A stretch of DNA of 59,977 nucleotides from a virus (Duplodnaviria > Caudoviricetes): IMG/VR virus record IMGVR_UViG_3300047281_000067, positions 1 to 59,977 of that record; one strand, given 5' to 3'. This document shows positions 15,000-57,663 of the stretch, piece after piece. Positions within the stretch are counted from its first letter, which is position 1; each line of letters begins with the position of its first letter. The position numbers and the translations under genes were made by a program. The notes beneath the pieces are model-generated. The model saw nothing but the letters and a program-made list of their open reading frames with translations, was not told where the DNA came from and searched no databases.

Positions 15000-16100
15000 A
15001 TGAGTTATCTATTCACATCAGAGTCAGTAAGCGAAGGTCACCCGGATAAAGTAGCAGATGCTATTAGTGACGCAGTATTAGATTTAGTAATGGCAGCGCA
15101 AAATTCAGCATTACGTTGCGCATGTGAGACATTGGTCACTACAAATAGAGTTGTGGTCGCCGGCGAATTCAAGGGTGAATTACCTACTGACAGTGTTGAT
15201 ACAGCGATACGCAAAGTAATCAAGGACATAGGGTATGAACAATCAGGATTTGATTGGCGTACAGTAGAAATTACTAATCTATTACACGGACAAAGTGCTG
15301 ATATTGCCATGGGCACTGACAACTTTGGCGCCGGCGATCAGGGTCTAATGTTTGGGTATGCGTGTAATGAGACCGCGGATTATATGCCAAGTGCTATTTA
15401 TTGGAGTCATAAAATCGTAGAAGCGTTAACTCGTGTACGCAAGAGTGGTGCTATGGAATGGTTAGGACCTGATGCCAAGAGTCAAGTAACTTTTGAGTAT
15501 GATGATAATGGTGTACCAAAGCGAATTGCTAAGGTAGTCTGTTCTACTCAACATAGTGAAGAGGCTCCCATTGATTTAGTCAGAGTTTCAATTGAGCATC
15601 TTATTCGTGAAGTATTGCCTGCTAACTTAGTAGATAGTACGACTGAGTTTCACATTAACCCAACTGGCCGATTCGTCATCGGCGGACCAGATGGTGACAC
15701 CGGTCTTACTGGTCGTAAAATCATTGTTGACACCTACGGAGGTTCTTGCCCGCACGGCGGCGGCGCATTCTCTGGTAAAGATCCAACTAAAGTGGACCGT
15801 TCTGCTGCGTACATGATGCGTTACCTTGCTAAGAACATCGTGGCAAGCGGTAAAGCAGATTGGTCAACTGTACAAATCAGCTACGCCATTGGATTGAAAG
15901 ACCCTATGAGCTTCTATGTCGAATGTGCTGATGCCCAACAAGGCAGAGACTTGACGAAGTGGATACGTGAAAATGTTGATCTAACACCGAAGGGTATTAT
16001 TGATCGTTTTGATTTATTCCGCCCGATCTATCATACCACTACCAACTATGGACACTTCGGCAAGGCGAATTTACCTTGGGAAAAGATAGACTTGTTTTAA
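15000..16100 (+). CDS. metK: S-adenosylmethionine synthetase
   Basis: FTSESVSEGHPDK, GAGDQG, GLTGRKII, GGGAFSGKDPTKVDRS. Confidence 0.97.
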   Translation: MSYLFTSESVSEGHPDKVADAISDAVLDLVMAAQNSALRCACETLVTTNRVVVAGEFKGELPTDSVDTAIRKVIKDIGYEQSGFDWRTVEITNLLHGQSADIAMGTDNFGAGDQGLMFGYACNETADYMPSAIYWSHKIVEALTRVRKSGAMEWLGPDAKSQVTFEYDDNGVPKRIAKVVCSTQHSEEAPIDLVRVSIEHLIREVLPANLVDSTTEFHINPTGRFVIGGPDGDTGLTGRKIIVDTYGGSCPHGGGAFSGKDPTKVDRSAAYMMRYLAKNIVASGKADWSTVQISYAIGLKDPMSFYVECADAQQGRDLTKWIRENVDLTPKGIIDRFDLFRPIYHTTTNYGHFGKANLPWEKIDLF

Positions 16101-19827: not shown

Positions 19828-19831
19828 GTAT

Positions 19832-19892
19832 TAGGATCCGTTCAGCAAACTTAAAAAATTCAACTTGTAATTGAAAAATAAGGATCCTGTTA
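19832..19892 (+). ncRNA. Y-like RNA copy 1 with Thr(UGU) anticodon stem-loop
   Basis: aggatcc/ggatcct terminal helix + TTCAGCAA; ttcaa-CTTGTAA-ttgaa. Confidence 0.7.
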
Positions 19893-19897
19893 TATTC

Positions 19898-21917: not shown

Positions 21918-23351
21918 GTGGCAAATTTAATTTTATGGAACACATTAAATCACAATGTATTTTTAGTTAGACCAGTCGGTGCCCATCAAATTGCACAATG
22001 GTTGATAAAACACGGATACACGGTAAAGGTAATTGATTTTTGTAGTTCTATTTCTACTGATGATTTAGTTGAGATAACACGAAAATTTATTGATAACTCT
22101 ACTATTGCGGTGGGAGTTAGTTCTACATTTTGGAACCTGTTTGACCCGATTACAATAACATCTAGTTCTAGATATCCACAGGGTAATAAATTCACAGCAA
22201 TCGATCCAGACTGGGTTAACTCAGGTAGACGAAAAATTGAAAGCTTATATCCTGAATTAAAATGGTTATTGGGAGGGGCATCCTCACAAGCTATCAGTAT
22301 GCATGATTGGATAAAATTTCACGGTCATGCTGAGGATTCAATATTAAAATTTTTAGATGAAAAAAGTGGCAAAAATATCGCTAGGACACCATTTACAATA
22401 CAATCCATGGAGTGGTCATACGGTGAGGGATTAGGTATACTCCCTCATGAAGTATTGGGTATTGAACTTGGTCGCGGATGTCAATTTAAATGTGGATTTT
22501 GTAGATATCCTCTATTGGGTAAAAAGAAAAATTCTTATTTACGAAATTTTAACTTAGTCAAGCACGAATTAATCCAGAATTATGAAAAATTTGGTGTTAC
22601 ACGCTATTCATATTTAGACGATACAGTGAATGAAAGCTCTGAGAAAATAGAAATTATGGCTGATATCGCGCAGTCACTCCCGTTTAAATTAGAATGGGTA
22701 GGGTATGGTAGATTAGATTTAATTGGTTCAAATCGTCCATCGATACAAACTCTTAAAGATTCGGGGCTTCGTAGTATGTTTTTTGGTATAGAGACATTCC
22801 ACCCAACCGCAAGTAAAGCAATTGGAAAAGCTTGGAATGGTAAACACGGTAAAGAATTTTTGCTCGAACTCAAGGAAATATGGGGTAAAGAAATCAACTT
22901 TCATACTAACTTCATAGTTGGGCTCCCGGGCGAATCAGAAATTGATATAGATAATACAATTCAATGGTGTATTGATAATGATATCCCATCATGGAAGTTT
23001 GGCGCATTAAATATTTCAATTAGACAAGATTTACTGTTTAAGAGTGTATTTGATGAAAACTACGCAGAGTATGGGTATAAATTCACCAATCCATTGGATG
23101 ATTCTTATTGGGAAAATGAATACTGGAATGCTCAGACAGCAGTGGATAAGCAACTATCTGTTTCTCGTCAAAATAAGAATAGTCGCCCATCAGATTTCGC
23201 TTTAGCGAGTCTCGCTGGTCTTGGTTATTCAATAGATGAACTCATTAATACACCTCAGCACTCACTGCCATACGGTGATATGTTTAATAAGCGACAATCA
23301 CACATAGACCAATACGTTCATTATCAAAAAAATATTGCTAATGCGTACTAA
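21918..23351 (+). CDS. B12-binding radical SAM protein (class B-like)
   Basis: ELGRGCQFKCGFC CxxxCxxC, FGIET, FIVGLPGE; N-terminal Rossmann-like domain. Confidence 0.88.
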   Translation: MANLILWNTLNHNVFLVRPVGAHQIAQWLIKHGYTVKVIDFCSSISTDDLVEITRKFIDNSTIAVGVSSTFWNLFDPITITSSSRYPQGNKFTAIDPDWVNSGRRKIESLYPELKWLLGGASSQAISMHDWIKFHGHAEDSILKFLDEKSGKNIARTPFTIQSMEWSYGEGLGILPHEVLGIELGRGCQFKCGFCRYPLLGKKKNSYLRNFNLVKHELIQNYEKFGVTRYSYLDDTVNESSEKIEIMADIAQSLPFKLEWVGYGRLDLIGSNRPSIQTLKDSGLRSMFFGIETFHPTASKAIGKAWNGKHGKEFLLELKEIWGKEINFHTNFIVGLPGESEIDIDNTIQWCIDNDIPSWKFGALNISIRQDLLFKSVFDENYAEYGYKFTNPLDDSYWENEYWNAQTAVDKQLSVSRQNKNSRPSDFALASLAGLGYSIDELINTPQHSLPYGDMFNKRQSHIDQYVHYQKNIANAY

Positions 23352-28801: not shown

Positions 28802-29402
28802 TATTAAAACACACTAGTTCTTAGGGTTGTTCCGAAGATAATTATCTCCAATGGAGTCCTAGTATGTTTTAATATGGTAAATGTAGGCACCAACCTACTG
28901 CTAGGGTACGTCCCCGGTTTAATCTTTCTGAGCGATAAAGTAGCCGCTGTAAGCAATACACCTTCTCCGCACGAAATGGATGGTTACCATGGAAGGCGAA
29001 CGACTGAAAAAGAGAAAAAGCGAAAGAAAGTCAGAGATTGGTACTGACACCATATTGAAGTACATTGTGGAGAGCACTGTGTAGACTGAGAAGGTTTGAT
29101 TCCGACTCACTACATCACTCGGTATCCTGCGGCCGCAACAGTGTATTTCAATATGGTAATAACCAACAAGTTTTGTAAGTGTTAGCAAGAGAAAGTCACG
29201 CTATGTACTATTCTTCGAAGGTGGTACAGAAGTAAAAGGTCAAGTGGGTTCAACTCCCAGCCGCGCTCTTAAAGTGAAAGCGGCGCAGATTGGTTGCCGG
29301 TGCTGGACAAAGTATTCCAAGTAACATACCGCTCCCGTCCGGACTAGTTAAATCGGGAGAAGCGTTGAGATACAAGCGGCTCAACTACTTACAGATTCAA
29401 TT

Positions 29403-29463
29403 TAGGATGCCTACTGCAAACATAAAACTTTCACTGTAAATGAAAAAAATGTGCATCCTGTTA
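29403..29463 (+). ncRNA. Y-like RNA copy 4 with Tyr(GUA) anticodon stem-loop
   Basis: aggatgc/gcatcct helix + CTGCAA; tttca-CTGTAAA-tgaaa. Confidence 0.72.
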
Positions 29464-29475
29464 TATTATCGGTTT

Positions 29476-29596
29476 TAGGATACATTCAGCAACACTTAAT
29501 ATCAAGCAGTATGTCAGTGGTTCGAATCCACTCCGAGGCGAAAGCTAAGGTAGCTCAGTTGGTAGAGCAACAGCCAATAAAAAGCGTATCCTGTTA
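29476..29596 (+). ncRNA. Y-like RNA copy 5, YrlA-type permuted tRNA mimic
   Basis: aggatac/gtatcct helix + TTCAGCAA; T arm agtggTTCGAATccact, then GAAA-capped acceptor-like stem, then D arm tagctcagttggtagagc. Confidence 0.8.
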
Positions 29597-29601
29597 TATA
29601 A

Positions 29602-29676
29602 GCTCGTTTAGCACAGCGGTAGTGCGCTATCTCGACAAGATAGAGGTCAAAAGTTCAAATCTTTTAACGAGTACCA
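29602..29676 (+). tRNA. tRNA-Val(GAC), C33
   Basis: loop TCGACAA, CCA. Confidence 0.85.
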
Positions 29677-29694
29677 ATCAACATAAGGAATTAT

Positions 29695-29868
29695 ATGAGC
29701 AAAGGCGACCGCCCAAGAAAACCCACAATTCCATTAGTGGAATTTAATAGCAAACTAGATACGATCTTCGGTGTAAAGCCGCCGAAAGAGCGATGGGTTG
29801 CTCCTCCCCTCCCAGTAGATGAACCAGTTGTAAAGAAAAACATCTGGGCATCTGATAAAGAAGTTTAA
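29695..29868 (+). CDS. small hypothetical protein (MSKG..PR family)
   Basis: AAGGA RBS; MSKGDRPRKPTI..., similar to the ORF at 37141. Confidence 0.6.
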   Translation: MSKGDRPRKPTIPLVEFNSKLDTIFGVKPPKERWVAPPLPVDEPVVKKNIWASDKEV

Positions 29869-29968
29869 TAAAGAAAGACTATATGAAGCGAAGTTCAGCT
29901 AAACTATAGTGTCCCTTGGATCTCCGTATGGTCTAGGGTGGCACGTAAAAGAAAACTAATACGAACAC

Positions 29969-30043
29969 CCATGCTAAACTTTAGTGGTGAAGTAACCGGC
30001 TCTTAACCGGAGGAACAGAGTTCGAGTCTCTGAGCATGGACCA
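29969..30043 (+). tRNA. tRNA-Lys(CUU)
   Basis: loop CTCTTAA, CCA. Confidence 0.87.
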
Positions 30044-30045
30044 TA

Positions 30046-30120
30046 CGGGGTATAATTCAATGGTTAGAATAGTCGGCTTTTAACCGATCTATCACGGTTC
30101 GAGTCCGTGTGCCCCGACCA
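30046..30120 (+). tRNA. tRNA-Lys(UUU)
   Basis: loop CTTTTAA, CCA. Confidence 0.92.
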
Positions 30121-30228
30121 TAAGCAAGCACATTATTTAAAAAGGAACGCAAGTTCTAGGCATAGCCAATGGCATCGTAACGGTGGGTAGTGTGCTTACT
30201 TATGGTAACAACAAGATAAGAGAAAAAT

Positions 30229-30477
30229 ATGTTTAAAGTTTATTATACTGATCCAATCACTGATTCCTCTCATGCTCACAATGTTGCTTCATTGAATGAA
30301 GCACTACGCCATACAGAAGGGTTTCGCAAACTAGGCATGACCTTTGTTACTATGGTAGCAGAGGATCCAAATCAAGTTGGTAAGTCTGGCGTTGATTCAA
30401 TCGTAGATGGCAAGTGTCCGGACGGCGTTGCTTACGATTGGAATAAGTCCAGTCGCATTGGCGCAACAAGACGATAA
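30229..30477 (+). CDS. conserved hypothetical protein
   Basis: FVTMVAEDPNQVGKSGVD...YDW motif. Confidence 0.7.
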   Translation: MFKVYYTDPITDSSHAHNVASLNEALRHTEGFRKLGMTFVTMVAEDPNQVGKSGVDSIVDGKCPDGVAYDWNKSSRIGATRR

Positions 30478-30491
30478 CGATAAATAATTTC

Positions 30492-31835
30492 ATGCCTAAT
30501 AAAAATATATTTTGTTCTAGTCCATGGTTACATATTAAAATTGACTACGATGGAAGATTTGTTCCGTGTCGATGGCAGTCAACAATCAATCCTGAAGTTG
30601 ATTCTAGCAATTTACGCTCAATGAGTATCTTAGAATTTTACAATTCATCTAGAATGAACCAGTTTAGAAGCAATCTTTTAGAAGGTTCTGACCTAACTGA
30701 ATGTTCTTCATGTAAGTATGAAGATTCATTCGAAAAGGTAAGTGGTAGATTAAAACAGTTATATCGCAGTGGTATTGCTATCGAATCATTTGATCGAGAC
30801 TTTTCAAAAAGTCATCACTATGAATTGTTTAACTACAGTACTGATAACAATGGTCAAACTAATGCCTACCCGTACGATTTTCAAATTAATTTGAGTAATG
30901 TGTGTAATAGTGCTTGTATTATGTGTGCTCCGCATTTTAGTACTCGTCTAGTTCAAGATTATCAGAAACTATCAAAATTCGCCCCGGTATTATTTAAACA
31001 ACCAAAAAAAATTAATTGTTGGGCAGATGATCCTTCACTCGTCGAAAAATTTATACGTGATATTAAAGAATTACCGTACATTGATTATATACATTTGTTG
31101 GGCGGTGAAACTCTCTTATTAGAAAGTTTTTACACAATATGTGATGCATTGATTGAATCCGGACTATCAAAAACTATTTATTTAGGTACTACTACTAATT
31201 TAACAGTGTATTCACCTAAAATTGAAAATATTGTTACTAAGTTCTCTAAATTTCACTTAGGATTGAGTATTGAATCAGTTAATCCGTTGAATGATTATAT
31301 TAGATATCCGTCTAAGATCACTGGCATATTAGAAAATTTATCAAAATATTTATCCCTAAGAGATAAATATCCGGACAAACTACACATGTCATTGCGCATC
31401 ACTCCTAATATTTTTAGTATTTTTTATATTGATGAAGTTATACAATATATGTGTGATAATGACATAACTGGCGAAAGTTGTAATATATTGATTCGTCCTG
31501 AATGTTTGCGAATGGAATTAATGCCGGAAAATATACGATTGCTCACTATTGAAAAACTTAACGCAGTGATTAACAAAAATGAATTGTCTCGGGCCAAAGT
31601 AGTAAATATTCGAGACAATAATCTAACGCGAGAAGTGATTTCCACTATTGCGTTCACATACGTTGATTTCTTAGAAAATCTAGTTCTACCGTCGGACGGT
31701 GAAAAACAACGACATGATCTAGTAACATTCCTTCATGGATTTGAGTCTATAAGAGGAAATTCAATATTAGACTATGCCCCGGAGTATGAAACATTTCTAA
31801 AAGCATATGGTTATACGCGCCCACTTGACATTTAA
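30492..31835 (+). CDS. radical SAM protein with N-terminal twitch/SPASM-like domain
   Basis: FCSSPW..PC, ECSSC, CNSACIMC, LGGETLL, YIRYP. Confidence 0.88.
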   Translation: MPNKNIFCSSPWLHIKIDYDGRFVPCRWQSTINPEVDSSNLRSMSILEFYNSSRMNQFRSNLLEGSDLTECSSCKYEDSFEKVSGRLKQLYRSGIAIESFDRDFSKSHHYELFNYSTDNNGQTNAYPYDFQINLSNVCNSACIMCAPHFSTRLVQDYQKLSKFAPVLFKQPKKINCWADDPSLVEKFIRDIKELPYIDYIHLLGGETLLLESFYTICDALIESGLSKTIYLGTTTNLTVYSPKIENIVTKFSKFHLGLSIESVNPLNDYIRYPSKITGILENLSKYLSLRDKYPDKLHMSLRITPNIFSIFYIDEVIQYMCDNDITGESCNILIRPECLRMELMPENIRLLTIEKLNAVINKNELSRAKVVNIRDNNLTREVISTIAFTYVDFLENLVLPSDGEKQRHDLVTFLHGFESIRGNSILDYAPEYETFLKAYGYTRPLDI

Positions 31836-32203
31836 TGCGAATGCTGCTATAATAGACACATACGATAAGAAAGCAACTTCTAATCAGTTTGAAAGAACAG
31901 AAAAAGAGGTTGACATTTAATCAAAACGGTGTTATAATTAATACTTAGACAGCAGCAAGTGAGAAACAATGACAACTTCAACTAAAGTAATACAAGTTTG
32001 TAAAGAGAACAAAGTTCTTAAATTCATTACAACCCGTTTATTTGTAATCATTCTTGGGCTGTTGATTATCAGTAAAGGATTGGTTAATCCAACTAAAATG
32101 TTGGCTCAACTTGAAAATTCACTTGACAATTAATCAAAACGGTGTTATAATAGACACATAGCAGAAAATGATAGAGTTAACTGCTAAACGATCTTTAAAA
32201 AGT
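31825..32203 (+). promoter_or_regulatory. three sigma70 promoters (-35 at 31825, 31910, 32123) with boxA-like element
   Basis: TTGACA-17-TATAAT three times; 32123-32163 duplicates 25427-25467; gatctttaaaaa at ~32190. Confidence 0.8.
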
Positions 32204-33631: not shown

Positions 33632-33752
33632 GCCATAGTTGAATACATTGTTTAGCTCAGTCGGTAGAGCGACCACTATTATACTAGTTACGTGGGGATA
33701 AATTGTCACAGAGCGCGGGTTCGAGTCCCGCAATAGTGTATTCAACTATGGT
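33632..33752 (+). ncRNA. tRNA-like RNA whose acceptor stem is the ~20 bp conserved hairpin
   Basis: D arm tagctcagtcggtagagc and T arm gcgggTTCGAGTcccgc stacked on gccatagttgaatacattgtt/aatagtgtattcaactatggt. Confidence 0.65.
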
Positions 33753-41059: not shown

Positions 41060-41857
41060 ATGCAAGTTCTATTACAAGACATTAGTACATACGAAACCAG
41101 AACTATCAGTCAAGCATGTATGCTATCTGATATAAAGGTACATCGTACAAGTTTAGGAATGTTACAAACACTCTTTGACTTCAAGACTGAATTACTACGA
41201 GGGGATTTAATGCCCGTTGGTAGTGTAGAGTTTGTAAGAGAATGTTTCTCTATCATGGATATAGAATCACCCGGGTGGTCCTCATATCCCGACGAATTAG
41301 AAGAATTCTTACACAGAAAACTTAAAGTACGCAGTGCACCTTATATTCGCATAATGTATACTTCTCAAGCAATAGAGACACCCGTGTTCATCAAACCAGC
41401 ATATCAAGTAAAATTGTTCAACGGGTTTGTATTTTATCCTACTAAAAAGCGGGAAGATTATGATGAACATGATCAAGAGCAGTGGGATATCGTAATGTCA
41501 GCGGACAATAAGACATTATTGTGTATCAGCGATGTAGTAGACTTTCATAGTGAATGGCGATATTATATCGATGACAATAAGATCATTGGGTCAGCAAGAT
41601 ATGACGATGGTCCTGATTCAGCATTAGCACCAGAGATAGATGTAGTCAATCAAATGATTGAGGCTATGCCGATAAATCATCCTTACACATTGGATGTAGG
41701 GAGACTGTCAACTGGTGGCACCGCTTTGGTGGAAATCAACGATGCTTGGGCAATCGGGTTGTACGGTAAAGCATTAACCCCAAGAGTTTATTTAGACTTT
41801 TTGGGTAAACGATGGAAATCAATTGTTGAAAAACACTTGACAAGTAATCAAAACTAA
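41060..41857 (+). CDS. ATP-grasp domain protein (DUF4343/R2K-like)
   Basis: PVGSVEF, YPDEL..FLHR, VFIKP, SEWRYYI, TLDVG, LVEIND.WAIGLY. Confidence 0.8.
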   Translation: MQVLLQDISTYETRTISQACMLSDIKVHRTSLGMLQTLFDFKTELLRGDLMPVGSVEFVRECFSIMDIESPGWSSYPDELEEFLHRKLKVRSAPYIRIMYTSQAIETPVFIKPAYQVKLFNGFVFYPTKKREDYDEHDQEQWDIVMSADNKTLLCISDVVDFHSEWRYYIDDNKIIGSARYDDGPDSALAPEIDVVNQMIEAMPINHPYTLDVGRLSTGGTALVEINDAWAIGLYGKALTPRVYLDFLGKRWKSIVEKHLTSNQN

Positions 41858-41865: not shown

Positions 41866-41886
41866 TAACGCTTAGACACTGAGATT

Positions 41887-42022
41887 TAGGATAGGTGCAG
41901 CAATCAAATTAATCAACTTGGATTGCTACTTTTAACCTGGACATCAAACTCCAGACAAAGTAGATAGAGTGGTTTCGACAGTTCCCCTCGATAAAAGAAA
42001 AAAGTAGATAACTATCCTGTTA
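41887..42022 (+). ncRNA. Y-like RNA copy 7
   Basis: aggatag/ctatcct helix + GTGCAGCAA, CCTGTTA end; internal GGTTTCGAC T-loop-like motif. Confidence 0.68.
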
Positions 42023-42026
42023 AATT

Positions 42027-42093
42027 TAGGTTAACTTCAGCAACACAAACACCTGGCTGTCTGCTAGGACACTAAACTAGTATTAACCTGTTA
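42027..42093 (+). ncRNA. Y-like RNA copy 8 with Asp(GUC) anticodon stem-loop
   Basis: aggttaa/ttaacct helix (compensatory changes) + TTCAGCAA; cctgg-CTGTCTG-ctagg. Confidence 0.72.
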
Positions 42094-42108
42094 AAGAAAG
42101 AGAAAATT

Positions 42109-43524
42109 ATGAAATTCGCAGAAGCAATCGGTAATCAAGAAGCTCGTACCGCAAACGGTATGAAGGCACGTTCGTCAACAGCTAACGCCTGTGTTGACTT
42201 GTTTTTCGCCATTGGCGCAAGCCGTGGTAAAAACATTATCCCCCAATTCACTGCGGCTTATGTCGAGAACAGTGACCTCGCATTGCGCATCGTGCAATGG
42301 GTTCGTGATGTGCGCGGCGGTTCAGGTGAACGTGAAATCTTCCGTCAAGTATTGACTCACTTGGAAAACACTAACCCAGCAGACGCTAGCCGTTTGATGG
42401 TCAAGGTCCCTGAGCTTGGTCGTTGGGATGACTTGTTTGTCTTTAAGACTGAACCTCTTAAGGCACAAGCATACACAATGTTGGGCGATGCCCTTCGTGT
42501 GAAGAACGGCCTTGCTGCTAAGTGGACACCTCGCAAGGGTGACACTGCTGTTGAAATTCGTAAGTTTTTCGGCATGACTCCTAAGCAGTACCGTAAGTCG
42601 TTGGTTAACATGACTCAAGTTGTTGAAACTCAAATGTGCGCAGGCTCATGGGATGTTATCAACTTCTCGCATGTTCCATCTGTTGCGCATTCGCGTTACA
42701 AGAAGGCTTTTGGTCGTCATGGTACTACCTACGCTGAATACGTGACTAAGCTCGTCAAGGGCGAAGCAGGCGTAAAGATCAATGCTAACGCAATCTTTCC
42801 GCATGATGTATTGAAGGGTCGTATCACTGGTTACAGTGCTTCTTGGTCTAAGACCGAGTTGGATGTGATTGAAGCGCAATGGAACGCATTGCCTAACTAT
42901 GTTGGTGATGCTAGCGTGTTGCCTCTTGTTGACGTATCAGGTTCAATGACTTGTAAAGCAGGTCAAACTGGTACTACTACTTGTCTGGAAATTGCAGTCT
43001 CTTTGGGTCTGTACTTTGCTGATAAGAACAAGGGTGCGTTTAAGGATTGCATGTTGACCTTTAGTGACAAGCCTCAGTTGGTTACCCTCAAGGGTGCTAT
43101 CAACGAAAAGATCGACCAAATGGTCGCTACTGATTGGGCTATGAGCACTAACTTGCATGCCGCATTTAATGTGATCCTCAACACCGCGGTGAAGAACAGT
43201 GTTGCTCAAGCAGACATGCCAGCAACTTTGATCATCTTCTCGGACATGCAGTTTAACTCTTGCGTTAAGAATGATGACAGCGCAATGGAAATGATCGAAC
43301 GCAAGTTTGAAGCAGCTGGTTACGCACTACCAAAAGTAGTGTTCTGGAACTTGAACGCTGGTAACAACGTTCCTGTGAAGTTTGATAAGAAGGGCACCGC
43401 TCTTGTTTCTGGCTTCAGTCCAGCAATCGCAGCAAGCATCTTGGGTGCTGACCCAGACGCCTTCACTCCAGAAGCTATCATGCTTAAGGCAGTGATGAAC
43501 AGTCGCTACGATTTGGCTGAATAA
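42109..43524 (+). CDS. TROVE/Ro60-like helical domain + vWA protein (DUF2828-like)
   Basis: RDVRGGSGER, GRWDDL, AAKWTPR helical region; MIDAS DVSGSM, STNL, FSDMQF, VFWNL, VSGFS; host-like highly expressed codon usage. Confidence 0.8.
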   Translation: MKFAEAIGNQEARTANGMKARSSTANACVDLFFAIGASRGKNIIPQFTAAYVENSDLALRIVQWVRDVRGGSGEREIFRQVLTHLENTNPADASRLMVKVPELGRWDDLFVFKTEPLKAQAYTMLGDALRVKNGLAAKWTPRKGDTAVEIRKFFGMTPKQYRKSLVNMTQVVETQMCAGSWDVINFSHVPSVAHSRYKKAFGRHGTTYAEYVTKLVKGEAGVKINANAIFPHDVLKGRITGYSASWSKTELDVIEAQWNALPNYVGDASVLPLVDVSGSMTCKAGQTGTTTCLEIAVSLGLYFADKNKGAFKDCMLTFSDKPQLVTLKGAINEKIDQMVATDWAMSTNLHAAFNVILNTAVKNSVAQADMPATLIIFSDMQFNSCVKNDDSAMEMIERKFEAAGYALPKVVFWNLNAGNNVPVKFDKKGTALVSGFSPAIAASILGADPDAFTPEAIMLKAVMNSRYDLAE

Positions 43525-56687: not shown

Positions 56688-56868
56688 TTAGGGTATTTTT
56701 AGCATTTGTATTATTGACAGTTGTATTTGGATTTGGTATATCTTGGTTCAGAACATTGTCAGGAAAAGAAGTATGGGGCTTGACAAAATCAGTGACCTAT
56801 GCTATAATGTGTTCAATACTTTCACTAATGGTGTTAGTTGGTTTAGTAATTTTATTTTAAGGAAACAT

Positions 56869-57663
56869 ATGAAACGTATTTTGACTCTCTCTATTTTGGC
56901 TGCTGCTGTTTTGGCAACAGGTTGTACTCGTATTGAAACTGGCGAGGTTGGCGTTCGTGTCGGCTTTGACAAACAGGTACAAAGTGGTGAACTGTTGCCT
57001 GGATCTTTCAATCAAACTTTTATCGGTGATGTACTGACATTCCCTATCAAAGACGTTAATGTCACCCTGGAGAATATGACTCCTGTGGCGGCCGACAACT
57101 CCACAATGAAGGACTTTGATGCTGTGGTTGTTTACAACATCAATCCATCGCAGGTGTCAGAATTGTATTCAACTAAGAACAAGAGTTTCCACGCAGAGTT
57201 CAAAGGTGATACTTATGTGATGTACAACTACATTGTGCAAACTGCTCGTAATGCTATCTACAAGGCAGCACGTAAGCACGAAGCATTGGACATGGCTGAC
57301 AAGCGCAATGAAATGGAAAAGTTCATTCAGGATGAGATAGTGCGTAACATGGCTGAAGAAAAGCTGGACGGTGCAATCACTATCAGCCAAGTAATGATTC
57401 GTAATGTTGTGCCTAGCGACACCGTTGTTGAAAGTGCCAATGCGTTGGTTCGTAGTAAGAACGAATTGAAGCAGAAGGAAGTTGAAGTTAAGACTGCCGA
57501 AGCTGAAAGCCGTCGTATGGCAGCATTGGCTAATAACTCCGGTGCATCAATTGCATTCATGCAAGCCCAGGCTATGTTGAATGTATCCGAGGGTATTAAG
57601 AACGGCAAGGTCCAAACTATTGTTGTTCCTAGTAACTTCAATGCATTGATGATGCCTAAGTAA
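56869..57663 (+). CDS. SPFH/Band 7 (prohibitin) lipoprotein
   Basis: AAGGA RBS; LATGC lipobox, RIETGEVGVR, C-terminal coiled coil. Confidence 0.85.
   Translation: MKRILTLSILAAAVLATGCTRIETGEVGVRVGFDKQVQSGELLPGSFNQTFIGDVLTFPIKDVNVTLENMTPVAADNSTMKDFDAVVVYNINPSQVSELYSTKNKSFHAEFKGDTYVMYNYIVQTARNAIYKAARKHEALDMADKRNEMEKFIQDEIVRNMAEEKLDGAITISQVMIRNVVPSDTVVESANALVRSKNELKQKEVEVKTAEAESRRMAALANNSGASIAFMQAQAMLNVSEGIKNGKVQTIVVPSNFNALMMPK

What the first reader, a model, noticed from the sequence alone, without database searches (positions are those of the whole stretch)
29476..29596. YrlA-type circularly permuted tRNA mimic carried on the non-canonical handle
Seen: inside the terminal helix the order is T arm (agtggTTCGAATccact), an imperfect 7 bp acceptor-like stem capped by GAAA, then a textbook D arm (TAGCTCAGTTGGTAGAGC). 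Established: this T-acceptor-D order, with the protein-binding helix replacing the anticodon arm, is the architecture of bacterial YrlA RNAs. It is the strongest independent link between this family and Ro60 biology, yet the handle lacks the canonical Y RNA GUCGA/bulged-helix signature.
Basis: partly seen in the sequence, partly recalled or inferred. Interest (0 to 1): 0.85.

Follow-up and report, generated by a model that had tools for sequence, protein, structure and literature searches.

The report
Phage Y-RNA-like tRNA mimic, Ro-like partner
The flagged 125 bases are a real, conserved small RNA built like a tRNA turned inside out on a clamp-like stem, and the same phage encodes a previously overlooked Ro60-like protein that is probably its partner.

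Summary
Window 29475-29599 (+) has a terminal 8-bp helix enclosing a T arm, an imperfect GAAA-capped acceptor-like hairpin and a D arm. Rfam's YrlA model matches only the tRNA-like core (27.6 bits, below the 69-bit threshold). It is not decayed tRNA. At least 139 distinct relatives in viral contigs keep the same layout with compensatory changes. They sit in phage tRNA arrays and share a handle: UUAGG-stem, N3, CAGCAA ... stem-CCUGUU. Short forms carry only an anticodon-arm-like hairpin on this handle; the window has five.

No Pfam TROVE (Ro60) gene occurs in the window or in 0 of 71 relatives' records. However, window ORF 42109-43524 (DUF2828+DUF7788) is predicted to have a Ro60 fold; its 13 best PDB matches are all Ro60. 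It starts 13 nt after two tandem handle RNAs and co-occurs with the RNA family (11 of 12 near-complete genomes versus 1 of 9 controls).

Best reading: a Y-RNA-type scaffold for a divergent phage Ro60-like protein, a new variant of the Ro60/Y RNA system. Binding and function are inferred, not shown.

The parts
29475..29599 (+). Whole long-form element: handle plus YrlA-like circularly permuted tRNA mimic (the finding)
   Evidence: Sequence; Rfam YrlA partial hit; 139 unique relatives; an RNA-library contig matches exactly 29472-29596 with unlike flanks
29476..29483 (+). Handle helix, 5' strand (pairs with 29586-29593)
   Evidence: 8 pairs. In alignment A5, 19 of 19 sequences are paired at all 8 positions and 3 positions have compensatory changes. 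The relatives were selected for a complementary 3' strand, so this pairing is partly by selection
29487..29492 (+). CAGCAA motif, unpaired, 3 nt after the 5' handle strand; proposed protein-contact site
   Evidence: Invariant in A1, A2 and A5, but fixed by the search pattern. Kept as CAGCAA, CAGCGA, CCGCAA or CAGCAC in copies found without that pattern
29506..29510 (+). Anticodon-stem-like helix, 5' strand (pairs with 29570-29574; 4 of 5 pairs in the window)
   Evidence: All 5 pairs show changes on both sides across 19 sequences; 82.1% of cells are paired
29516..29532 (+). T arm (5-bp stem, TTCGAAT loop)
   Evidence: 5 of 5 pairs in 124 of 134 relatives (two of the five pairs were fixed by the pattern)
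29533..29550 (+). Acceptor-like hairpin closed by GAAA (5 of 7 pairs)
   Evidence: relatives have 7 of 7 pairs in 82 of 134 and 6 of 7 in 32 of 134; 70 distinct stems among the 102 best-scoring copies
29551..29568 (+). U8-A9 plus D arm (4-bp stem, loop AGTTGGTA with G18 G19)
   Evidence: D stem 4 of 4 in 102 of 134. Among the 102 best-scoring copies: U8 in 95, A14 in 93, GG in 99
29570..29574 (+). Anticodon-stem-like helix, 3' strand
29586..29593 (+). Handle helix, 3' strand
29594..29599 (+). 3' tail (UUAUAU); tRNA-Val starts 3 nt later at 29602
   Evidence: The sequence CCTGTT is kept after the stem in nearly all relatives although the scan did not fix it
19831..19895 (+). Short-form handle RNA (handle plus anticodon-arm-like hairpin)
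   Evidence: Model R1, 77 bits
20058..20129 (+). Short-form handle RNA
   Evidence: R1, 59.7 bits
27480..27543 (+). Short-form handle RNA
   Evidence: R1, 76 bits
29402..29466 (+). Short-form handle RNA, 8 nt upstream of the finding
   Evidence: R1, 67.4 bits; MFE shows the handle plus a 5-bp, 7-nt-loop hairpin, z -2.23
41886..42025 (+). Long handle RNA with a non-tRNA insert
   Evidence: Same handle motifs; MFE closes the handle; only split weak R1 hits
42026..42096 (+). Short-form handle RNA ending 13 nt before the Ro-like ORF
   Evidence: R1, 38.5 bits
42109..43524 (+). Ro60-like protein (DUF2828 + DUF7788, 471 aa): N-terminal helical repeats plus C-terminal vWA domain with a DxSxS motif; proposed partner of the handle
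   Evidence: Pfam; AF2 model pLDDT 78.3, pTM 0.82; top 13 PDB fold matches are all Ro60 or TROVE proteins, E 1.4e-8 to 8.7e-6; hhalign to phage TROVE proteins 96.9% over the vWA domain

Best explanation
The element is a genuine non-coding RNA of the Y-RNA type. A terminal helix formed by its 5' and 3' ends, with an adjacent unpaired CAGCAA motif (the 'handle'), carries a non-aminoacylatable, circularly permuted tRNA body, as in bacterial YrlA.

It is one long-form member of a large phage family. The same handle carries either only an anticodon-arm-like hairpin (short form) or a whole tRNA mimic (long form).

Shown: the RNAs lie inside tRNA arrays on the tRNA strand.

Inferred: they are co-transcribed with the tRNAs and released by the host's tRNA-processing nucleases. 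The handle is the docking site for the phage's own divergent Ro60-like protein (DUF2828/DUF7788, window 42109-43524). The variable module (tRNA mimic or anticodon arm) is then presented to tRNA-recognising host factors, by analogy with Ro60/Y RNA particles that tether or gate a partner enzyme. Copies directly upstream of the protein's gene probably also allow autoregulation.
For: (1) Structure and conservation. There are 139 unique long forms. Acceptor-like plus D stems score at least 10 of 11 in 102 of 134 parsed, versus 29 of 670 shuffled controls. Among those 102: U8 in 95, A14 in 93, D-loop GG in 99, and complementary 15:48 pairs in 70 (A:U 41, G:C 16, U:A 13). In the window's own subtype (19 sequences), 95.9% of cells are paired versus 78.6% shuffled (0 of 500 shuffles as high) and 34-47% when the partners are slid; 12 of 22 pairs have compensatory changes.

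(2) Handle family. In 38 short forms there are 8 pairs and none is broken; the two inner pairs show 4 and 3 pair types. The window holds 5 short and 2 long copies.

(3) Partner protein. The window ORF is DUF2828+DUF7788. Its model matches full-length Ro60 structures in the first 13 ranks, then only isolated vWA domains at E >= 3e-3. Its vWA domain is homologous to that of phage TROVE proteins.

(4) Co-occurrence. DUF2828 is present in 53 of 71 handle-bearing records and 11 of 12 near-complete ones. It is present in 3 of 24 non-family records and 1 of 9 near-complete ones (Fisher p 3.7e-4). It is present in 0 of 7 TROVE-encoding records. TROVE is present in 0 of 71 handle-bearing records.

(5) Adjacency. 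An R1 hit lies no more than 30 nt upstream of the DUF2828 ORF on the same strand in 7 of 12 loci, as it does in the window. By eye, the same holds in 8 of 14 upstream regions. In Vibrio phage nt-1 the stem encloses the ribosome-binding site and start codon.

(6) Cultured phages with DUF2828 also carry such RNAs. Ralstonia phage RSP15 has an R1 hit at 42.3 bits. Variant handles are seen by eye in E. coli phage CL1 and next to the gene annotated 'Ro-like RNA binding protein' in mycobacteriophage Silverleaf.

(7) Parallel with canonical phage Ro60. Its Y-like RNAs lie upstream of the gene and have a 5'-3' stem flanking a bulge with a CGAA motif (PMC12135203, passages).
Against: There is no binding or expression-end data. 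RNA-library contigs show presence only.

The finding itself lies 12.5 kb from the Ro-like gene.

Eighteen of 71 handle-bearing records lack DUF2828. Most are fragments, but one record rated complete (G061) also lacks it. Two control records (G085, G094) have DUF2828 without an R1 hit.

The records are related phages, so the counts are not independent events.

Sequence-level similarity to Ro60 is weak outside the vWA domain: profile versus PDB gives E 0.022, phmmer finds nothing, and the Pfam TROVE model finds nothing. TM-scores are moderate (0.33-0.57).

Some YrlA-like RNAs in phages have neither TROVE nor DUF2828, for example the record of L106, rated complete.
Confidence: 0.6

Rival explanations
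1. Protein-independent tRNA decoy or sponge. The RNAs titrate host tRNA-targeting nucleases or tRNA-modifying enzymes. The handle is only a stabilising clamp and processing signal, and the DUF2828 association is a lineage effect.
For: The short forms' hairpins look like anticodon arms: a 5-bp stem and a 7-nt loop with U at loop position 2 and A at position 6, with many different middle triplets (read by eye). In one subtype the triplet is hypervariable while its flanks are constant (by eye). The RNAs lie within tRNA arrays: 125 of 142 short forms and 120 of 136 long forms are within 300 nt of a same-strand tRNA.
Against: This reading does not explain the invariant unpaired CAGCAA and terminal nucleotides. 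It does not explain the copies abutting the DUF2828 start codon. It does not explain the exclusivity with TROVE. It can, however, coexist with the best explanation as the downstream function.
Confidence: 0.17
2. The RNA recruits the host's canonical Ro60 (Rsr), as classical YrlA does.
For: The tRNA-like domain matches the YrlA model. Relatives score 33.9-49.9 bits, the same range as TROVE-linked phage YrlA-like RNAs at 30.7-52.7 bits.
Against: The GNCGAA-type Ro60 motif is absent. The host is unknown. None of 7 TROVE-encoding phage records has an R1-type handle RNA. The exact short-form pattern occurs in 1 stretch of 596 billion bases of cellular genomes against 44 viral stretches.
Confidence: 0.08
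3. Cis-acting punctuation or processing element (or promoter) of the tRNA array, with no trans function.
For: The elements abut tRNA ends: a tRNA ends within 10 nt upstream of 81 of 142 short forms. The 3' tail TGTTATAT resembles an extended -10 element (by eye).
Against: A whole tRNA-like body with tertiary-contact nucleotides is not needed for punctuation. The tail differs in cultured-phage variants while the stem and CAGCAA persist. Copies also occur away from tRNAs, upstream of the DUF2828 gene.
Confidence: 0.08
4. A real circularly permuted tRNA gene that is cut, joined at the handle and opened at the acceptor loop to give a decoding tRNA.
For: Many relatives contain every tRNA arm in permuted order. 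One (L051) has ACCA after the acceptor 3' strand.
Against: The window copy has no anticodon loop, two acceptor mismatches and a GAAA cap with no discriminator or CCA. Short forms have no tRNA body. No ligase or endonuclease link was found.
Confidence: 0.03
5. Chance juxtaposition or remnants of two decayed tandem tRNAs.
For: Tandem tRNAs can mimic the T-then-D order, a caveat noted in Chen et al. 2014. The window's acceptor-like stem is imperfect.
Against: The layout is conserved with compensatory changes in 139 unique relatives. The element recurs as a discrete module with different flanks.
Confidence: 0.01

Closest known systems
YrlA-type bacterial and phage Y RNAs (Rfam RF02553; Chen et al. 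2014, PMC4201824)
   Same: [quoted passage not shown] Both have T, acceptor-like and D stem-loops in that order, with tRNA tertiary-contact nucleotides and 15:48 covariation. Other copies of the handle family lie next to a Ro60-fold protein gene on the same strand.
   Different: The motif is CAGCAA, not GNCGAAN0-1G. The partner candidate is DUF2828/DUF7788, not Pfam TROVE/vWA_Ro60. The element is embedded in a tRNA array 12.5 kb from the protein gene. It is accompanied by many short forms on the same handle. It scores 27.6 bits against the 69-bit threshold.
Thermus phage phiLo Ro60 with Yrl1/Yrl2 (PMC12135203; PDB 9KOP, 9L5Y)
   Same: Both are phage-encoded Ro60-fold proteins with Y-like RNAs directly upstream of the gene. 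The RNAs have a 5'-3' stem flanking an internal loop with a short conserved motif. phiLo Ro60 is the best structural match to the window protein.
   Different: phiLo Ro60 is a canonical TROVE protein and its RNAs carry CGAA. A tRNA-mimic module was not mentioned in the passages I saw.
Dictyostelid Class I RNAs (Rfam RF01414; Kjellin et al. 2021, PMC7919456)
   Same: Both are about 60 nt with a short covarying terminal stem. Both have a conserved motif ending in ACAGCAA directly after the 5' stem strand, conserved AG...CUGU ends and a variable interior.
   Different: The Class I RNAs are eukaryotic, transcribed from their own promoter, and their known direct binder is an RRM protein. Only 2 phage short forms reach about 29 bits against a 41.5-bit threshold. 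This is a resemblance, not membership.
Circularly permuted tRNA genes of red algae (recalled, not checked here)
   Same: The 3' tRNA half lies upstream of the 5' half in one transcript.
   Different: Those genes are processed into decoding tRNAs. Here the acceptor end is capped and the window copy has no anticodon loop.

Membership tests
YrlA (Chen et al. 2014; Rfam RF02553) | T, acceptor-like (AS) and D stem-loops in that order inside a terminal stem | tested here: met
   conserved in relatives
YrlA (Chen et al. 2014; Rfam RF02553) | tRNA tertiary-contact nucleotides, with compensatory changes at the 15:48 Levitt pair | tested here: met
   The window has U8, A14, G18 G19 and G15:C48. In the family, 70 of 102 copies have complementary 15:48 pairs of three types
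YrlA (Chen et al. 2014; Rfam RF02553) | V stem-loop upstream of the T arm (present in many, not all, YrlA RNAs) | tested here: inconclusive
   In the window only a possible 3-bp hairpin is seen. Many relatives have a clear 4-5-bp hairpin there
YrlA (Chen et al. 2014; Rfam RF02553) | GNCGAAN0-1G motif near the 5' end (proposed Ro60 contact) | tested here: not met
   CAGCAA occupies that position (definition from PMC4201824 section 6)
YrlA (Chen et al. 2014; Rfam RF02553) | Encoded within about 4 kb of a TROVE-domain Ro60 gene on the same strand | tested here: not met
   No PF05731 match in the window. A Ro60-fold DUF2828 protein lies 12.5 kb downstream on the same strand
YrlA (Chen et al. 2014; Rfam RF02553) | Rfam gathering score of 69 bits | tested here: not met
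   27.6 bits. The test has little power: 0 of 7 TROVE-linked phage loci reach the threshold, and those scored at E-value level reach 30.7-52.7 bits
YrlA (Chen et al. 2014; Rfam RF02553) | Bound by Ro60; carries tRNA-type modifications | not testable with these tools
   Needs RIP or EMSA and modification mapping
Ro60 / TROVE protein family (for ORF 42109-43524) | HEAT-repeat ring plus C-terminal vWA domain with a MIDAS motif | tested here: met
   The AF2 model shows helical repeats plus vWA. There are 13 full-length Ro60 matches. D275, S277 and S279 are invariant in A3. This rests on a predicted structure, not a solved one
Ro60 / TROVE protein family (for ORF 42109-43524) | Match to Pfam TROVE (PF05731) or vWA_Ro60 (PF25045) | tested here: not met
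   A canonical phage example, McGee gp233, does match both
Dictyostelid Class I RNA (RF01414) | Rfam gathering score of 41.5 bits | tested here: not met
   29.2 bits for 29405-29460 and 28.8 bits for one relative; the other short forms in that search gave no hit at E <= 1
Functional (permuted) tRNA gene | Anticodon loop, 7-bp acceptor stem, discriminator/CCA end that can be exposed | tested here: not met
   No anticodon loop, 5 of 7 acceptor pairs, GAAA cap; not called by ARAGORN or the Rfam tRNA model

The most novel reading that the evidence does not exclude
The stem-N3-(UUA)CAGCAA...CUGU(U) RNAs of phages and the Class I RNAs of dictyostelid amoebae are the same kind of RNA. Both would be ligands of a second, DUF2828-type branch of the Ro60 family that runs from phages to eukaryotes (DUF2828 is also reported in plants; search listing only). 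That would give Class I RNAs and eukaryotic DUF2828 proteins a Ro/Y-RNA-like function. One of the four proteins pulled down with a Class I RNA, DDB_G0281243, has unknown function. I could not check whether it is a DUF2828 protein.
Probability: 0.06. Interest if true: 0.95.

Novelty: new variant of a known kind. Interest (0 to 1): 0.8.

Why it matters
Ro60/Y RNA particles are known from animals, some bacteria and a few phages, and the role of the tRNA-like domain is still open.

The evidence here suggests a second, much larger phage branch of that system. It combines a Ro60-fold protein that the Pfam TROVE model misses with its own RNA family carrying a different handle. Homologues of the protein occur in 706 GenBank phage records. 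These include phages of E. coli, Salmonella, Vibrio, Listeria, Staphylococcus, Campylobacter and Mycobacterium hosts.

This would explain 'orphan' YrlA-like RNAs in phages that lack a TROVE gene; several earlier notes of this scan describe such cases. It would tie the system to phage tRNA arrays. It would also offer culturable phage-host pairs in which to test what a tRNA mimic on a Ro-like particle does.

Tried and rejected
- Megablast of 29000-31900 against GenBank phages: no match.
- Rfam at gathering thresholds over the window: only tRNAs, 43 matches.
- Single-sequence folding of the element: not significant.
- The Rfam YrlA threshold as a discriminator: rejected. TROVE-linked phage RNAs fail it too.
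- Pfam TROVE searches: 0 matches in the window, 0 of 20 records plus 0 for the record of L117, and 0 of 50 records.
- NCBIfam on the Ro-like ORF: nothing meaningful.
- phmmer against PDB sequences: nothing relevant.
- The search for homologous proteins with A3: at least 7929 hits. The listed 120 are all close DUF2828/DUF7788 proteins without informative names, so it said nothing about eukaryotic relatives.
- The search of earlier findings by place, by many words and by protein sequence: nothing.
- Read laying: contigs only, so no ends, strand or level. Uncovered bins are not evidence.
- Dictyostelium Class I membership: rejected on score.
- A kink-turn or loop-E reading of the handle loop: rejected by eye. 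There is no conserved G.A pair next to the stem in A1.
- A promoter reading of the TGTTATAT tail: not tested with the promoter scan. I judged it unlikely because the tail varies in cultured-phage copies.
- Model R1 does not find long forms as single hits, only split weak hits. It also misses variant handles: Silverleaf gives none at E <= 1 and CL1 only 20.6 bits. R1-negative records are therefore not proven to lack the family.
- One pattern hit (L032) lacked a pairing stem and was left out of A1, as were exact duplicates.
Full report
**Setting.** The window is the whole of one IMG/VR virus record (59,977 bases, rated 5% complete). It carries about 40 tRNA genes, all on the + strand, between 19.7 and 37.1 kb. 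It also carries phage-type and auxiliary genes: ribonucleotide reductase, SAM synthetase, two radical-SAM enzymes and an HNH endonuclease. The finding lies in the tRNA array, 8 nt after another small element and 3 nt before tRNA-Val.

**The observation.**
- An 8-pair terminal helix (29476-29483 with 29586-29593).
- A T arm (29516-29532).
- An acceptor-like hairpin with 5 of 7 pairs, capped by GAAA (29533-29550).
- U8-A9 and a D arm (29551-29568).
- A further 5-position helix (29506-29510 with 29570-29574, 4 pairs) sits where a tRNA's anticodon stem would be and leads through an internal loop to the terminal helix.

Rfam's YrlA model matches only the tRNA-like core: 27.6 bits, gathering score 69, model positions 24-84 of 114, E 0.0017 in 1.2 kb. 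Thermodynamic folding of the single sequence is unremarkable (z -1.62).

**A handle family.** The ends of the element recur in the window. All copies are on the + strand and have the form UUAGG-stem, three bases, CAGCAA ... stem-CCUGUU(A/G)(U/A)AU.

An exact-pattern scan of IMG/VR for the short version found 44 stretches. I aligned 38 sequences: 33 distinct ones from the scan and 5 from the window. Duplicates and one non-pairing hit, L032, were dropped. All 8 handle pairs are intact in every sequence, and the two inner pairs show 4 and 3 pair types.

A covariance model built from this alignment (R1) finds five short forms in the window at 38.5-77 bits. The window's two long elements (29475-29599 and 41886-42025) appear only as split weak hits.

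The interior of the short forms is usually a 5-bp hairpin with a 7-nt loop that has U at position 2 and A at position 6. This is an anticodon-arm look-alike, and the middle triplet varies widely (read by eye).

**The tRNA mimic is conserved.** A scan for long inserts with both handle ends fixed gave 22 stretches. Most carry T arm, hairpin and D arm.

A less constrained scan fixed only the 5' handle motif and a T loop. Of 169 matches in all held loci, 158 had the exact complement of the 5' strand within 130 nt. This gave 139 unique sequences with a modal length of 123-125 nt.

In a structure-anchored parse of 134 of them (5 were too short for the search range):
- the T stem is 5 of 5 in 124;
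- the acceptor-like stem is 7 of 7 in 82 and 6 of 7 in 32;
- the D stem is 4 of 4 in 102;
- the combined acceptor-plus-D score is at least 10 of 11 in 102, against 29 of 670 shuffled tails.

Among those 102, U8 occurs in 95, A14 in 93, A21 in 93 and a D-loop GG in 99. The 15:48 position is A:U in 41, G:C in 16 and U:A in 13. There are 70 different acceptor-like stems.

For the window's own subtype (19 sequences, A5) a formal pair count gives 95.9% paired cells against 78.6% in shuffles (0 of 500 as high) and 34-47% when partners are slid. All five pairs of the anticodon-stem-like helix show changes on both sides. The handle pairing in this set is partly a consequence of how the sequences were picked.

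The 'decayed tandem tRNAs' alternative is therefore excluded. The window copy is a slightly degenerate member, with 5 of 7 acceptor-like pairs.

**Context.** Of 142 unique short and 136 unique long forms in the fetched loci, 125 and 120 lie within 300 nt of a same-strand tRNA. A tRNA ends within 10 nt upstream of 81 and 55 of them.

The exact short-form pattern occurs once in 596 billion bases of bacterial and archaeal genomes, on a 3.8-kb MAG contig.

Freshwater metatranscriptome contigs contain the elements.
- One 183-nt contig equals window 29395-29576 without a difference.
- One contig matches exactly 29472-29596 (2 differences) and then diverges on both sides.
- Another does the same for 29401-29464.

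This shows that the elements are discrete modules present in RNA libraries. It does not show ends, strand or level.

**Is Ro60 there?** By the Pfam TROVE model, no. There is no match in the window and none in 71 records that carry the family: 20, 1 and 50. Twelve of these records are rated at least 90% complete.

The search itself works. Seven of 7 viral records with YrlA-like RNAs on other handles, found with a T-loop/D-arm pattern, encode TROVE proteins. Rfam scores do not separate the two groups: 27.6-49.9 bits for the handle family and 30.7-52.7 bits for the TROVE-linked RNAs, all below 69.

**The overlooked partner.** Annotating the window's larger ORFs showed that 42109-43524 (471 aa) is DUF2828 plus DUF7788. 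It starts 13 nt after the tandem handle RNAs 41886-42025 and 42026-42096.

- An AlphaFold model built on 10 homologues (pLDDT 78.3, pTM 0.82) has N-terminal helical repeats and a C-terminal vWA domain.
- Its 13 best PDB matches are all Ro60 or TROVE proteins: Thermus phage phiLo, Xenopus, Deinococcus and human. They have E 1.4e-8 to 8.7e-6, about 500 aligned columns and TM 0.33-0.57. After them come only isolated vWA domains at E >= 3e-3.
- Profile-profile comparison with six phage TROVE proteins gives 96.9% probability over the vWA domain only.
- Plain sequence searches barely see the relationship.

The phage-annotation community already labels some members 'Ro-like RNA binding protein' (mycobacteriophage Silverleaf) and RefSeq labels them 'RNA-binding protein'. 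Pfam confirms that Silverleaf's and coliphage CL1's proteins are DUF2828+DUF7788. The cluster C1 mycobacteriophage McGee has a canonical TROVE+vWA_Ro60 protein.

**Co-occurrence and adjacency.**

| Set of records | DUF2828 present |
|---|---|
| Long-form records | 38 of 50 (9 of 10 near-complete) |
| Earlier handle-family records | 14 of 20 (both near-complete ones) |
| Record of L117 | 1 of 1 |
| Record with a variant handle (L147) | 1 of 1 |
| TROVE-encoding records | 0 of 7 |
| Other tRNA-bearing viral contigs (controls) | 3 of 15 |

One of the three positive controls (G090) does have an R1 hit. The other two do not.

Near-complete genomes give 11 of 12 against 1 of 9 (Fisher p 3.7e-4). All records give 53 of 71 against 3 of 24. 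The phages are related, so these are not independent events.

In 12 loci cut around DUF2828 genes, R1 finds a handle RNA no more than 30 nt upstream on the same strand in 7 (L309, L310, L314, L316, L317, L318, L319; two pairs of these are identical). It finds none at E <= 0.1 in L311, L312, L313 and L320. L315 has hits at other distances.

By eye, 8 of 14 upstream regions have such an element, with CAGCAA, CCGCAA or CAGCAC. In Vibrio phage nt-1 the stem encloses the ribosome-binding site and start codon, the layout of a translational operator.

**Cultured phages.** tblastn finds homologues of the protein in 706 GenBank phage records. In 701 of them the match covers at least 80% of the query. 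In three records examined around the gene:
- Ralstonia phage RSP15 has a long form followed by a short form with the standard handle (R1 42.3 bits for the short form).
- Coliphage CL1 has short forms and one long form with T, acceptor-like and D arms on a variant handle. The stem and terminal bases differ but (U)UACAGCAA or UUCAGCAA is kept. This was seen by eye; R1 gives 20.6 bits.
- Mycobacteriophage Silverleaf has three elements directly after its Ro-like gene. One has a full tRNA mimic, and the motifs are CAGCGA and CAGCAA. This was seen by eye only.

The universal core is therefore a terminal stem, three bases and CAGC(A/G)A.

**Comparison with what is known.** Chen et al. 2014 (sections 5 and 6 read, plus passages) define YrlA by four features. 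These are a GNCGAAN0-1G motif near the 5' end, V, T, AS and D stem-loops, tRNA-like tertiary positions, and location within 4 kb of a TROVE-annotated Ro60 on the same strand. They report YrlA in 254 bacterial species and 22 phages.

The phiLo study (passages) describes Y-like RNAs upstream of a phage Ro60, with a 5'-3' stem flanking a bulge that carries CGAA. Iyer et al. 2021 (passages) note a ROT/TROVE protein in a small subset of jumbo phages.

I found nothing in print that links DUF2828 proteins to an RNA partner or describes the CAGCAA handle. The searches were 'DUF2828' (5 papers, none on phages), Ro60/phage/Y RNA/tRNA, 'Ro-like'/phage, tRNA mimic/anticodon nuclease/decoy and YrlA/phage/tRNA-like. 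These cover only the held library. Supplementary tables of Chen et al., which list their phage RNAs, were not available to me and might include members.

The element fails strict YrlA membership on the motif, the TROVE neighbour and the Rfam threshold. It has the same architecture and, I infer, the same kind of partner.

**How it most likely works.** Shown: a conserved, structured, tRNA-like RNA on a conserved handle, inside tRNA arrays; a Ro60-fold protein encoded by the same phages, with handle RNAs at its start codon.

Inferred: the RNA is co-transcribed with the tRNAs and released by the host's tRNA-processing nucleases. The protein binds the handle through the stem and the unpaired CAGCAA. 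It autoregulates through the upstream copies. The particle presents a tRNA body or an anticodon arm to tRNA-recognising factors, either as a tether, as in Ro60/Y RNA/PNPase particles, or as a decoy. Which factor is involved, and whether the outcome is RNA quality control, repair or counter-defence, is open.

**Earlier notes of this scan.** These list several 'orphan YrlA-like' RNAs in phages said to lack Ro60. I did not test those genomes. The present result suggests they should be checked for PF11443.

Noticed in passing
window 29405-29460; L008 1313-1366: Short handle RNAs weakly match Rfam's Dictyostelium Class I RNA model (29.2 and 28.8 bits; threshold 41.5). The shared design is striking: a short covarying terminal stem, AG...CUGU ends, a motif ending in ACAGCAA right after the 5' stem strand, and a length of about 60 nt.
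   Followed up: partly
window 29190-29400: Gene-free stretch just upstream of the elements, with a T-loop-like hairpin near 29240. A 102-nt module (29302-29403) recurs in RNA-library contigs of two runs with different flanks. There is no Rfam match and the folds are not significant.
   Followed up: partly
window 33645-33740: ARAGORN calls a 96-nt tRNA of undetermined type with a four-base anticodon (tata). Rfam's tRNA model scores it 40.1 bits.
   Followed up: no
window 41060-41857: An R2K-clade ATP-grasp protein (PF18299/PF14243) lies directly upstream of the two handle RNAs and the Ro-like gene. A CCTGTTAAAA motif sits just before its start codon.
   Followed up: no
window 56743-57663; L324 481-1359: A Band-7/SPFH protein is encoded in the window. 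A 'band-7-like membrane protein' also lies about 1 kb upstream of the Ro-like gene of mycobacteriophage Silverleaf.
   Followed up: no
L046, L052, L056, L061, L006 and similar loci (long forms with a GGTTC-type handle): In one subtype the 6-7 bases just upstream of the handle are complementary to the acceptor-like loop. The two covary in L006, which suggests a pseudoknot. The 'anticodon' triplet of the hairpin in these copies is hypervariable between constant flanks (by eye).
   Followed up: no
L051 3326-3789: A GOLLD RNA (215.7 bits) lies in the same tRNA array as handle RNAs in a related viral contig.
   Followed up: no
window 21918-23351, 30492-31835, 15000-16100: Two radical-SAM enzymes (one with a SPASM domain) are interspersed in the tRNA array, and a SAM synthetase lies upstream.
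   Followed up: no
L106 (record G029, rated complete): A YrlA-like T/hairpin/D module on yet another handle, in a phage record with neither TROVE nor DUF2828.
   Followed up: no
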